NCBI RefSeq assembly: GCF_058153355.1
Contig: NZ_CM177019.1
Reading direction: 5' to 3' (one strand)
DNA: 64,000 nucleotides
In this document: positions 42,001-45,000 of the stretch, piece after piece
How positions within the stretch are numbered: the first letter of the stretch is position 1
Layout of the letters: each line of letters starts with the position of its first letter
Program-made: the position numbers

Positions 42001-45000
42001 CGATAAAAGCACCCCAGGGATGGATATTCAAAAAAGAGTGAGTGACATGGAACCAAAAACAAAAAAACAGCGTTCGCTTTATATTCCTTACGCTGGCCCT
42101 GTACTGCTGGAATTTCCGTTGTTGAATAAAGGCAGCGCCTTCAGCATGGAAGAACGCCGTAACTTCAACCTGCTGGGGTTACTGCCGGAAGTGGTCGAAA
42201 CCATCGAAGAACAAGCGGAACGAGCATGGATCCAGTATCAGGGATTCAAAACCGAAATCGACAAACACATCTACCTGCGTAACATCCAGGACACCAACGA
42301 AACCCTCTTCTACCGTCTGGTAAATAATCACCTCGACGAAATGATGCCCGTCATTTATACCCCTACGGTCGGCGCAGCCTGTGAACGTTTTTCTGAGATC
42401 TACCGCCGTTCACGCGGCGTGTTTATCTCTTACCAGAACCGCCACAATATGGACGATATTCTGCAAAACGTACCGAACCATAATATCAAAGTGATTGTGG
42501 TGACGGACGGCGAACGTATTCTGGGGCTTGGTGACTAGGGCATCGGTGGGATGGGTATTCCGATCGGTAAACTGTCGCTCTATACCGCCTGCGGCGGCAT
42601 CAGCCCGGCGTATACACTGCCGGTGGTGCTGGATGTCGGGACGAACAACCAGCAGTTGCTTAACGACCCGCTGTATATGGGCTGGCGTAATCCACGTATC
42701 ACTGACGACGAATACTATGAATTCGTTGATGAATTTATCCAGGCTGTGAAACAACGCTGGCCGGACGTGCTGTTGCAGTTTGAAGATTTTGCACAGAAAA
42801 ACGCGATGCCGTTGCTTAACCGCTATCGCAATGAAATTTGTTCTTTTAACGATGATATTCAGGGCACCGCGGCGGTAACAGTCGGCACACTGATCGCAGC
42901 CAGCCGTGCGGCGGGCGGTCAGTTAAGCGAGAAAAAAATCGTCTTCCTCGGCGCAGGTTCAGCAGGATGCGGCATTGCGGAGATGATCATCGCCCAGACC
43001 CAGCGTGAAGGATTAAGCGAAGAAGCGGCGCGGCAGAAAGTCTTTATGGTCGATCGCTTTGGTCTGCTGACCGACAAGATGCCGAACCTGCTGCCTTTCC
43101 AGACCAAACTGGTGCAGAAGCGCGAAAATCTCAGTGACTGGGATACTGACAGCGATGTGCTGTCATTGCTTGATGTGGTGCGCAATGTCAAACCGGATAT
43201 TCTGATTGGCGTCTCAGGACAGACCGGGCTGTTTACGGAAGAGATCATCCGTGAGATGCACAAACACTGTCCGCGTCCGATCGTGATGCCGCTGTCTAAC
43301 CCGACTTCACGTGTGGAAGCCACACCGCAGGACATTATCGCCTGGACCGAAGGTAACGCGCTGGTCGCCACCGGCAGTCCGTTTAATCCGGTGGTATGGA
43401 AAGATAAAATCTACCCCATCGCCCAGTGTAACAACGCCTTTATTTTCCCGGGCATTGGGCTGGGCGTTATTGCTTCCGGCGCGTCACGTATCACCGATGA
43501 GATGCTGATGTCGGCAAGCGAAACGCTTGCTCAGTATTCGCCGCTGGTACTGAACGGCGAAGGTCTGGTACTGCCGGAACTGAAAGATATTCAGAAAGTG
43601 TCCCGCGCAATTGCGTTTGCGGTTGGCAAAATGGCGCAGCAGCAAGGCGTGGCGGTGAAAACGTCTGCCGAAGCTCTGCAACAGGCCATTGATGATAACT
43701 TCTGGCAAGCCGAATACCGCGACTACCGCCGTACATCCATCTAAGCCTGCGCCCGGTAGTGACTGCTACCGGGCAATTTTCCTCTTCCTTTTTCAGATCT
43801 CATCCATACTGGGTAGTGGCGAATAAATCTCATTTGCCTCACCTGCTATGCAGAACATCATCCGAAAAGGAGGAAACTATGAAGGCTGCAGTTGTTACGA
43901 AGGATCATCATGTTGACGTTACGGATAAAACACTGCGCTCACTGAAACATGGCGAAGCCCTGCTGAAAATGGAGTGTTGTGGCGTATGTCATACCGATCT
44001 TCATGTTAAGAATGGCGATTTTGGTGATAAAACCGGCGTAATTCTGGGCCATGAAGGCATCGGTGTAGTGGCAGAAGTTGGCCCCGGCGTTACCTCATTA
44101 AAACCAGGCGATCGCGCCAGCGTGGCGTGGTTTTACGAAGGTTGCGGTCATTGCGAATACTGTAACAGCGGCAACGAAACGCTCTGCCGTTCAGTAAAAA
44201 ATGCCGGATACAGCGTTGATGGCGGCATGGCGGAAGAGTGCATCGTGGTCGCCGATTACGCGGTTAAAGTGCCGGATGGCCTGGACTCCGCGGCGGCCAG
44301 CAGCATTACCTGCGCGGGTGTCACCACCTACAAAGCAGTAAAACTGTCAAAAATTCGTCCAGGACAGTGGATTGCTATCTACGGTCTTGGCGGTTTGGGC
44401 AACCTCGCCCTGCAATACGCGAAAAATGTCTTTAATGCCAAAGTGATCGCCATTGATGTCAATGATGAGCAGTTGAAACTGGCAACCGAAATGGGTGCTG
44501 ATTTAGCGATTAACTCACGCACCGAAGACGCCGCCAAAATTGTGCAGGAGAAAACCGGTGGCGCTCACGCAGCGGTGGTGACCGCGGTAGCTAAAGCTGC
44601 GTTTAACTCAGCGGTCGATGCCGTTCGTGCAGGCGGTCGTGTTGTGGCTGTCGGTCTGCCGCCGGAGTCTATGAGCCTGGACATCCCACGGCTGGTGCTG
44701 GATGGTATTGAAGTGGTCGGTTCGCTGGTCGGCACGCGCCAGGATCTAACCGAAGCCTTCCAGTTTGCCGCCGAAGGTAAAGTGGTGCCAAAAGTTGCCC
44801 TGCGTCCGTTAGCGGACATCAACACCATCTTTACTGAGATGGAAGAAGGCAAAATCCGTGGCCGTATGGTGATTGATTTCCGTCGCTAAGAGGCCTTTGC
44901 TGCGACTGCCATGTTTGAGTCGCAGCCTGTTTTGCGAGACGCTTTCCGCAATTTCACTCTTCTTCTTTTCCTCCCCCATCTTTCCTCTCACAATTCACGA

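What the first reader, a model, noticed from the sequence alone, without database searches (positions are those of the whole stretch)
42536..42538. In-frame amber (TAG) codon in maeA at a conserved glutamine position
The maeA reading frame is intact except for one TAG where the K-12 protein, as recalled, has Gln (GLGDQGIGGMG). It is a single C-to-T change away from CAG. This would truncate the malic enzyme at about residue 163 unless an amber suppressor inserting Gln is present. It could also be a strain-specific pseudogene or a sequencing error.
Basis: partly seen in the sequence, partly recalled or inferred. Interest (0 to 1): 0.5.

Follow-up and report, generated by a model that had tools for sequence, protein, structure and literature searches.

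The report
Recent amber knockout of maeA
The stop codon is real: a very recent single C-to-T change has knocked out one of E. coli's two malic enzyme genes, at a methylated-cytosine site where this change recurs in unrelated strains, so it is an ordinary natural null allele and not a recoding event.

Summary
The TAG at 42536-42538 is in frame as codon 164 of maeA (42047-43744, +). K-12 and the closest complete genome (strain N96) have CAG there. It is the only amino-acid-level difference from N96 MaeA, against 25 synonymous differences, so the lesion is very young. The other roughly 40 genes that aligned cleanly have no premature stop. An independent public assembly (Logan SRR31441161) matches the window over 15,053 bases, TAG included, so an assembly artefact is unlikely.

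The ancestral context GAC-CAG-GGC holds CCAGG, a Dcm site. The mutated base is the inner, methylated C. This is the classic 5-methylcytosine deamination route to an amber codon.

The same CAG-to-TAG change occurs on at least 7 well-separated maeA haplotypes in public assemblies. The three other Dcm sites in maeA (Q81, Q232, W433) are hit recurrently too. Six non-Dcm CAG or TGG codons are hit less often (38/40 versus 17/56 places shown).

None of about 5,000 assessable complete E. coli genomes carries the TAG. The clean TAG164 alleles fetched carry no second stop, so these alleles do not seem to persist.

The 163-residue product ends midway through the N-terminal malic domain and lacks the NAD-binding domain. 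There is no evidence for suppression or recoding. Low interest: a new example of a known phenomenon.

The parts
42047..43744 (+). maeA (sfcA), NAD-dependent malic enzyme gene. It has 565 codons and is interrupted by one amber codon.
   Evidence: It is colinear with maeA of N96 (98.5% nt) and K-12 (95.2% nt), between sra and adhP. The restored protein matches PDB 6AGS end to end. Pfam places malic at 81-261 and Malic_M at 271-530.
42536..42538 (+). In-frame amber codon TAG at codon 164, where the ancestral codon is CAG (Gln).
   Evidence: It is CAG in K-12 and N96. A 31-nt CAG probe matches 4,998 of 5,426 complete E. coli genomes and the TAG probe matches 0.
42535..42539 (+). Mutated Dcm site: CTAGG now, CCAGG ancestrally. 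Position 42536 is the inner cytosine that Dcm methylates.
   Evidence: The sequence context is. The Dcm specificity comes from PMC4924334 and PMC2715241.
42047..42535 (+). The 163-codon N-terminal reading frame that remains translatable.
   Evidence: Public gene callers have called this exact product, listed in 136 blocks of the collection. It ends midway through the Pfam malic domain.
42551..43744 (+). Downstream 397-codon remnant ORF. It starts at Met169, 12 nt after the TAG, and is probably not a functional enzyme.
   Evidence: Gene callers report it as a separate gene. It lacks residues 1-168. Any reinitiation of translation here is inference only.
42286..42290 (+). Intact Dcm site CCAGG over codon 81 (CAG). 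This is a sister amber-prone site.
   Evidence: Q81-to-TAG was found in 10 of 10 places shown, on at least 7 haplotype groups elsewhere.
42739..42743 (+). Intact Dcm site CCAGG over codon 232 (CAG). This is a sister amber-prone site.
   Evidence: Q232-to-TAG was found in 10 of 10 places shown, on 9 haplotype groups elsewhere.
43341..43345 (+). Intact Dcm site CCTGG over codons 432-433 (GCC TGG). It is amber-prone through the bottom-strand methylcytosine.
   Evidence: W433 was TAG, never TGA, in 8 of 10 places shown, on 6 haplotype groups elsewhere.

Best explanation
This is a natural, very recent loss-of-function allele of the NAD-dependent malic enzyme gene maeA (Q164amber). Codon 164 (CAG) lies in the Dcm recognition site C-CAG-G. 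Dcm methylates the inner cytosine, which is the first base of the codon. 5-methylcytosine deaminates spontaneously to thymine. If Vsr very-short-patch repair does not restore the resulting T:G mismatch before replication, CCAGG becomes CTAGG and the Gln codon becomes an amber stop. RF1 then terminates translation after residue 163. That fragment ends midway through the N-terminal malic domain and lacks the whole NAD-binding domain, so the strain presumably lacks MaeA activity. It can tolerate this because E. coli has a second malic enzyme (MaeB) and other anaplerotic and gluconeogenic routes. Because the site is a mutational hotspot, the same allele arises again and again in unrelated E. coli, but it stays rare and short-lived.

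Shown here: the TAG, its CCAGG ancestry, its youth, its recurrence on many haplotypes, and the excess of hits at Dcm sites over control sites. Inferred: that Dcm methylation and deamination caused this particular event, that the enzyme is inactive, and that selection removes such alleles.
For: (1) TAG is in frame at codon 164 and K-12 and N96 have CAG.

(2) Youth: against N96 there are 25 synonymous differences, and the stop is the only amino-acid-level difference. Codons 148-456 are otherwise identical to N96.

(3) The rest of the window is healthy. About 40 genes are colinear and free of premature stops.

(4) An independent Logan assembly (SRR31441161) is 100% identical to the window over 15,053 nt, TAG included.

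(5) The ancestral context is CCAGG and the changed base is the methylated C (Dcm and Vsr biology in PMC4924334, and PMC2715241). A roughly 8-fold higher C-to-T rate at this position in natural populations is attributed to Cherry 2018 in PMC12344412.

(6) Recurrence: 14 fetched contigs carry TAG164 on 10 distinct maeA sequences in 7 haplotype groups that differ by up to 81 nt. One group is the K-12 allele plus only this change. Flanking markers 25 nt upstream and 11 nt downstream differ between the window and every other TAG allele, which leaves room only for a conversion tract of about 35 nt.

(7) Prediction test: at all four Dcm sites in maeA the predicted amber is found repeatedly. Q81, Q164 and Q232 each gave 10 of 10 places shown, and W433 gave 8 of 10. 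W433 was always TAG, as bottom-strand deamination predicts. Six non-Dcm CAG or TGG codons gave 0/10, 1/10, 2/10, 5/9, 3/7 and 6/10. Separation is complete (exact Mann-Whitney p = 0.005; pooled 38/40 versus 17/56).

(8) Pfam places the stop inside the malic domain (81-261) and before Malic_M (271-530).

(9) 0 of 5,426 complete E. coli genomes match the TAG probe, against 4,998 for the CAG probe. The clean TAG164 alleles fetched carry no second stop.
Against: The cause of any single mutation cannot be proven. C-to-T transitions also occur at unmethylated cytosines, and one non-Dcm control (W238-to-TGA) reached 6 haplotype groups.

The hotspot test is semi-quantitative. The tool shows at most 10 de-duplicated places drawn from the 24 longest contigs. 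Raw contig counts showed no excess at codon 164 (58 contigs versus 35-68 for controls), although those counts proved to be dominated by contig-end truncations.

Within the window, lineage-specific transitions are only 2.5-fold enriched at Dcm cytosines (3/210 versus 123/21,814; p = 0.12).

The presence of dcm and vsr, and actual methylation in this strain, were not observable. Loss of enzyme activity is inferred and was not measured. Raw reads were not seen.
Confidence: 0.75

Rival explanations
1. This is an ordinary random C-to-T replication or deamination error that happens to fall in a Dcm site, and methylation played no causal role. The allele is still a recent null.
For: Non-Dcm nonsense alleles of maeA also occur in public assemblies, for example W238-to-TGA on 6 haplotypes and Q250-to-TAA on 3 or more. 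The within-window enrichment at Dcm cytosines is not significant.
Against: All four Dcm sites in maeA outrank all six control codons in recurrent hits. At W433 the mutated G is always the one paired with the methylated C, giving 8 of 8 TAG and no TGA. The literature reports a roughly 8-fold elevation at this position (PMC12344412).
Confidence: 0.15
2. This is a sequencing or assembly error and the strain really has CAG and an intact maeA.
For: It is a single-base difference, and no reads could be inspected here.
Against: An independently built Logan contig from SRR31441161 is identical to the window over 15,053 nt including the TAG. The same substitution appears in many unrelated assemblies from several pipelines. 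Neighbouring genes show no sign of base-calling noise such as frameshifts.
Confidence: 0.04
3. The amber is suppressed or read through, by a supE-like tRNA-Gln(CUA) elsewhere in the genome or by efficient natural read-through, so functional full-length MaeA is still made.
For: A Gln-inserting suppressor would restore the exact wild-type protein. The frame downstream is perfectly intact. From general knowledge, low-level near-cognate read-through of UAG by tRNA-Gln exists in E. coli.
Against: The window has no tRNA gene. No other gene in the window carries an in-frame TAG, as might accumulate in a suppressor strain. No recoding RNA element lies near the site: the only Rfam hit in the window is the fdnG SECIS. 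The intact downstream frame is explained equally well by the lesion being young. Suppressor alleles are laboratory markers and are not known to be common in natural isolates (general knowledge).
Confidence: 0.03
4. Loss of maeA is adaptive. The recurrent nonsense alleles reflect positive selection for inactivation in some niche, and mutational bias is not the cause.
For: Many independent nonsense alleles of maeA exist. Two roughly 4.4-Mb genomes carry the Q81 amber plus further lesions in maeA (L035, L039), and the source names attached to that 80-residue product include Shigella dysenteriae.
Against: The hits concentrate at Dcm sites and are not spread over all possible stop-creating positions. 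The TAG164 allele is absent from about 5,000 assessable complete genomes. The clean TAG164 alleles fetched carry no second stop, so no successful clade is visible. The otherwise purely synonymous divergence of maeA (79 of 82 differing codons versus K-12, 25 of 26 versus N96) indicates long-term purifying selection.
Confidence: 0.05

Closest known systems
Amber hotspots at Dcm (CCAGG) sites in lacI, caused by spontaneous deamination of 5-methylcytosine (Coulondre, Miller, Farabaugh and Gilbert 1978; Lieb 1991, cited in PMC2715241)
   Same: The sequence change is the same (C-CAG-G to C-TAG-G), it falls on the same methylated inner cytosine, it produces the same outcome (Gln to amber), and it recurs at the same site.
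   Different: Here it is seen in a chromosomal metabolic gene of natural isolates and public assemblies, and not in a laboratory mutation screen. Methylation of the site in this strain was not measured.
Methylation-induced hypermutation at CCWGG in natural enterobacterial populations (Cherry 2018, J Bacteriol; roughly 8-fold, as cited in PMC12344412)
   Same: There is population-level recurrence of C-to-T at the inner C of CCWGG on both strands. All four maeA Dcm sites behave this way.
   Different: This is a single-gene, semi-quantitative illustration and not a genome-wide rate estimate. The Cherry paper itself could not be read here.
E. coli K-12 MaeA/SfcA, NAD-dependent malic enzyme (b1479; PDB 6AGS)
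   Same: The gene, synteny and protein are the same. The restored protein differs from K-12 at 2 residues (A316S, L507M).
   Different: The window's copy has an amber at codon 164 and can encode only 163 residues.
Programmed in-frame stop codons, such as the selenocysteine UGA of fdnG in the same window
   Same: Both are an in-frame stop inside an otherwise intact, conserved ORF.
   Different: The fdnG TGA196 is conserved in the reference and is accompanied by a SECIS element (Rfam SECIS_3, 84 bits). The maeA TAG matched none of the 5,426 complete genomes probed (4,998 assessable with the CAG probe) and has no associated RNA element.

Membership tests
maeA / NAD-dependent malic enzyme gene | Sequence orthology to E. 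coli MaeA and conserved synteny (sra - maeA - adhP) | tested here: met
   95-98.5% nt identity to K-12 and N96 maeA, with the same neighbours. Full-length match to PDB 6AGS.
maeA / NAD-dependent malic enzyme gene | Both Pfam domains (malic, Malic_M) encoded in one uninterrupted ORF | tested here: not met
   Both domains are present in the restored sequence (81-261 and 271-530), but the ORF is cut at codon 164. It is therefore a null allele or pseudogene of the family.
Dcm 5-methylcytosine deamination hotspot mutation | The ancestral sequence is CCWGG and the change is C-to-T at the inner C (or G-to-A opposite it) | tested here: met
   CCAGG in K-12 and N96, CTAGG in the window at 42535-42539.
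Dcm 5-methylcytosine deamination hotspot mutation | The same change arises independently in unrelated lineages | tested here: met
   7 haplotype groups carry TAG164, including the K-12 allele plus 1 nt. Flanking markers exclude shared tracts longer than about 35 nt.
Dcm 5-methylcytosine deamination hotspot mutation | Excess over comparable unmethylated sites | tested here: met
   4 Dcm codons versus 6 control codons gave 38/40 versus 17/56 real nonsense alleles among places shown, with complete separation (p = 0.005). The test is semi-quantitative, and raw contig counts were uninformative.
Dcm 5-methylcytosine deamination hotspot mutation | The strain has active Dcm and the site is methylated | not testable with these tools
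   dcm and vsr lie outside the window, and no methylation data are available.
Suppressed amber (supE-type strain) | A tRNA with a CUA anticodon is present | not testable with these tools
   There are no tRNA genes in the 64-kb window and the rest of the genome is not available.
Suppressed amber (supE-type strain) | Further in-frame TAG codons are tolerated in other genes | tested here: not met
   None in the roughly 40 genes compared.
Programmed recoding of a stop codon | The stop codon is conserved in orthologues and accompanied by a recoding signal | tested here: not met
   CAG in 4,998 complete genomes and TAG in 0. No Rfam element lies at the site.
Old or decaying pseudogene (Shigella-type genome reduction) | Multiple lesions and relaxed constraint (elevated non-synonymous change) | tested here: not met
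   There is a single lesion, with 0 other non-synonymous against 25 synonymous differences versus N96.

The most novel reading that the evidence does not exclude
In-frame Dcm sites such as C-CAG-G in maeA might act as reversible mutational switches. Deamination of 5-methylcytosine would switch the gene off. Vsr, which converts T:G mismatches in CTWGG back to C:G, would bias reversion and switch it on again. A dispensable metabolic gene could then flicker between on and off states under fluctuating selection. The data do not exclude this, but nothing points to it. About 48% of Dcm sites in the window's other genes are equally amber-prone, so maeA's 4 of 4 is unremarkable (p about 0.05). The alleles also look like short-lived deleterious variants.
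Probability: 0.03. Interest if true: 0.5.

Novelty: new member of a known kind. Interest (0 to 1): 0.15.

Why it matters
The main use is annotation and interpretation. This maeA should be called a pseudogene or null allele with an internal stop, and not two genes and not a recoded gene. The strain should be modelled as lacking NAD-malic enzyme. The case also shows how one known mutational hotspot motif (Dcm, CCWGG) produces the same 'strain-specific' nonsense allele repeatedly in public E. coli data. That matters when recurrent nonsense mutations are read as evidence of adaptive gene loss. No open question is advanced.

Tried and rejected
(1) Raw contig counts of truncated MaeA products were tried as a hotspot test (Dcm codons 195/58/77 contigs versus 35-68 for controls). 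I rejected this because reading the loci showed the control counts were dominated by genes cut at contig ends, with one IS-like junction at codon 130. I replaced it with locus-by-locus classification.

(2) Within-window enrichment of lineage-specific transitions at Dcm cytosines gave a ratio of 2.5 with p = 0.12. It is underpowered and confounded by recombination.

(3) I tried to find the window's source genome or more carriers. Exact 24-nt TAG pattern scans of the GTDB representative genomes and JGI metagenomes both returned nothing. No complete RefSeq E. coli genome carries the TAG.

(4) The idea that maeA is unusual because all 4 of its Dcm sites are amber-prone was rejected. 64 of 134 Dcm sites (48%) in the other genes are amber-prone, giving p about 0.05.

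(5) A recoding element at the TAG was ruled out. The only Rfam hit in the window is the fdnG SECIS.

(6) Cherry 2018 (PMC6256030) could not be opened, so its result is cited second-hand from PMC12344412.

Full report
**Observation.** Window 42533-42541 reads GAC TAG GGC. The ORF list shows one frame split into a 163-codon piece, counted from the annotated ATG at 42047, and a 397-codon piece (42551-43744). The two are separated only by this TAG and 12 nt. When 42047-43744 is translated as one frame, the only stops are at codon 164 and the natural end at 566. The gene is maeA (sfcA). It lies between sra and adhP exactly as in K-12 MG1655 and strain N96. The restored protein matches the solved E. 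coli MaeA structure 6AGS over all 565 residues. K-12 and N96 both have CAG (Gln) at codon 164, within [15 protein letters not shown]. One nuance: in the one non-E. coli malic enzyme alignment shown, the aligned residue is Leu.

**How old is the lesion, and is the region otherwise healthy?** Against N96, the closest complete genome (98.5% in maeA), 26 codons differ. Of these, 25 are synonymous and the 26th is the stop. Against K-12, 79 of 82 differing codons are synonymous. Codons 148-456 are identical to N96 apart from this one base. So the gene was under strong purifying selection until very recently, and nothing has decayed since.

- The window is colinear with E. coli chromosomes at about 96-99% identity.
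- About 40 genes are colinear and free of premature stops.
- The only other in-frame stop is TGA196 of fdnG. It is shared with the reference and is followed by a SECIS element (Rfam SECIS_3, 84 bits).
- Other disruptions are an IS66-family insertion in a fimbrial usher gene and a frameshifted leucine-rich-repeat gene.
- The window has no tRNA genes.

**Is the base real?** No complete RefSeq E. coli genome contains the window's allele. A 31-nt probe centred on TAG hits 0 of 5,426 genomes, while the same probe with CAG hits 4,998. However, looking up the exact 397-residue and 163-residue products in public assemblies found many contigs. One of them, Logan's own assembly of run SRR31441161, is 100% identical to the window over 15,053 nt, TAG included. 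An assembly artefact is therefore unlikely. Reads themselves could not be inspected.

**The unexpected finding: the same mutation on many backgrounds.** Fourteen fetched contigs carry TAG at codon 164, on 10 distinct maeA sequences. These fall into 7 haplotype groups that differ by up to 81 nt. One group is the K-12 allele with this single change. The nearest flanking markers, 25 nt upstream and 11 nt downstream, differ between the window and every other TAG allele. Spread of one ancestral TAG by recombination would therefore need conversion tracts of about 35 nt. Independent recurrence is the simpler reading.

**Why this base?** The ancestral sequence GAC-CAG-GGC contains CCAGG, the recognition site of the Dcm methyltransferase. 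Dcm methylates the second C (PMC4924334). 5-methylcytosine deaminates to T. The resulting T:G mismatch in CTWGG/CCWGG is the substrate of Vsr very-short-patch repair. When that repair fails, the result is a C-to-T mutation (PMC2715241). CCAGG to CTAGG in the C-CAG-G frame is the classic route to the lacI amber hotspots (Coulondre et al. 1978; general knowledge). In natural populations the inner C of CCWGG is reported to mutate about 8-fold faster (Cherry 2018, as cited in PMC12344412).

**Testing the hotspot idea.** maeA has four Dcm sites and all four are amber-prone: C-CAG-G at codons 81, 164 and 232, and GCC-TGG at codons 432-433. A first test with raw contig counts of truncated products showed no excess at codon 164. 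Reading the loci showed why. The control counts were mostly genes cut by contig ends, plus one IS-like junction. I therefore classified every fetched locus, as shown below.

| Site type | Codon | Real nonsense among places shown | Stop codon seen | Haplotype groups |
|---|---|---|---|---|
| Dcm | Q81 | 10/10 | TAG | 7 |
| Dcm | Q164 | 10/10 | TAG | 7 |
| Dcm | Q232 | 10/10 | TAG | 9 |
| Dcm | W433 | 8/10 | TAG | 6 |
| non-Dcm | Q130 | 0/10 | none | 0 |
| non-Dcm | Q203 | 1/10 | TAG | 1 |
| non-Dcm | Q244 | 2/10 | TAG | 2 |
| non-Dcm | Q250 | 5/9 | TAA | 3 |
| non-Dcm | W213 | 3/7 | TAG and TGA | 3 |
| non-Dcm | W238 | 6/10 | TGA | 6 |

Separation between the two classes is complete (exact Mann-Whitney p = 0.005; pooled 38/40 versus 17/56). 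At W433 the stop is always TAG and never TGA. That is what deamination of the bottom-strand methylcytosine predicts (CCTGG to CCTAG). The non-Dcm Trp codons give TGA or a mixture.

The test has limits. At most 10 de-duplicated places are shown per look-up, so the Dcm values are capped. One control (W238) is also fairly recurrent. A within-window check gave only a 2.5-fold, non-significant enrichment.

**Consequence for the protein.** Pfam places the malic N-terminal domain at 81-261 and the NAD-binding domain at 271-530. The 163-residue product stops midway through the first domain and lacks the second. From general knowledge of malic enzymes, the catalytic Lys in IPIGK and the metal-binding acidic residues also lie downstream. 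The 397-codon remnant begins 12 nt after the stop. Its only Shine-Dalgarno-like sequence sits directly against the ATG. Even if it were reinitiated, the product would lack residues 1-168. Loss of MaeA activity is therefore inferred. It should be tolerable because E. coli has MaeB and other routes (general knowledge).

**Population picture.** TAG164 is absent from about 5,000 assessable complete genomes, from the GTDB species representatives and from JGI metagenomes. The clean TAG164 alleles fetched have no second stop. This fits recurrent, mildly deleterious hotspot mutations held at low frequency. Only two roughly 4.4-Mb genomes carrying the Q81 amber show further decay of maeA (L035, L039). 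The source names attached to that 80-residue product include Shigella dysenteriae.

**Alternatives.**
- Sequencing error is unlikely.
- Suppression by a supE-like tRNA cannot be excluded without the genome, but nothing supports it. There are no tRNA genes and no other in-frame TAGs in the window.
- Programmed recoding is excluded by the lack of conservation and of any recoding signal.
- Adaptive loss is not favoured. The hits track the methylation motif and not function, and the alleles do not expand.
- The idea that maeA is specially built with amber-prone Dcm sites fails. 48% of the Dcm sites in the other genes have the same property.

**Verdict.** This is a real, very recent, naturally occurring amber null allele of maeA, at a known kind of mutational hotspot. 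It is ordinary biology: a new example of a well-described phenomenon. Its main value is for correct annotation, and as a caution when recurrent nonsense mutations are read as evidence of selection.

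Noticed in passing
window 3980-6445: An IS66-family element of about 2.47 kb, with three ORFs of 142, 115 and 523 aa (4054-4482, 4479-4826, 4846-6417), is inserted in the outer-membrane usher gene of the ydeQRS-type fimbrial operon. It splits the usher into 3728-3979 and 6446-8856. The flanks overlap by about 11 nt in the uninterrupted reference, which is consistent with a target-site duplication.
   Followed up: partly
window 49691-49693 (- strand codon) and 49638-49696 (-): fdnG carries its programmed in-frame TGA (codon 196, selenocysteine), followed by a SECIS element (Rfam SECIS_3, 84 bits). This is a genuine recoded stop in the same window and a useful contrast to the maeA amber.
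   Followed up: yes
window 54274-55523 (and 52921-54212): These are two tandem leucine-rich-repeat genes (the yddK/yddJ region). The second is out of frame relative to its N96 orthologue from about codon 247, so it is probably a frameshift pseudogene. The first differs at its 3' end. The region is also degraded in K-12.
   Followed up: partly
window 45075-45637: A complete HigB/RelE-like toxin gene (45075-45353) precedes yddM (a HigA-family antitoxin gene, 45353-45637), as in N96. In the K-12 annotation only the antitoxin gene yddM is listed.
   Followed up: no
L024 (Logan ERR3549529), at maeA codon 130; also L025-L033: Many public contigs end exactly at maeA codon 130. One continues into sequence beginning TGAAGTGGTCAACAAAAACTGGCCACC, which looks like an insertion-sequence end. 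This suggests a clonal lineage with an IS inserted in maeA. It inflates counts of 'truncated' MaeA proteins in databases.
   Followed up: partly
L035 and L039 (CP061527.1, CP026786.1; genomes of about 4.4 Mb): These genomes combine the Q81 amber at the first Dcm site of maeA with further frame-disrupting lesions downstream, so this is an older, decaying maeA pseudogene. The source names attached to the 80-residue product include Shigella dysenteriae.
   Followed up: no
maeA codon 238 (window 42758-42760) in L090-L095: The non-Dcm Trp codon TGG238 is recurrently mutated to TGA, and never to TAG, on 6 different haplotypes. This may be a second, methylation-independent local hotspot (context CGC-TGG-CC), or it may be sampling noise.
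   Followed up: no
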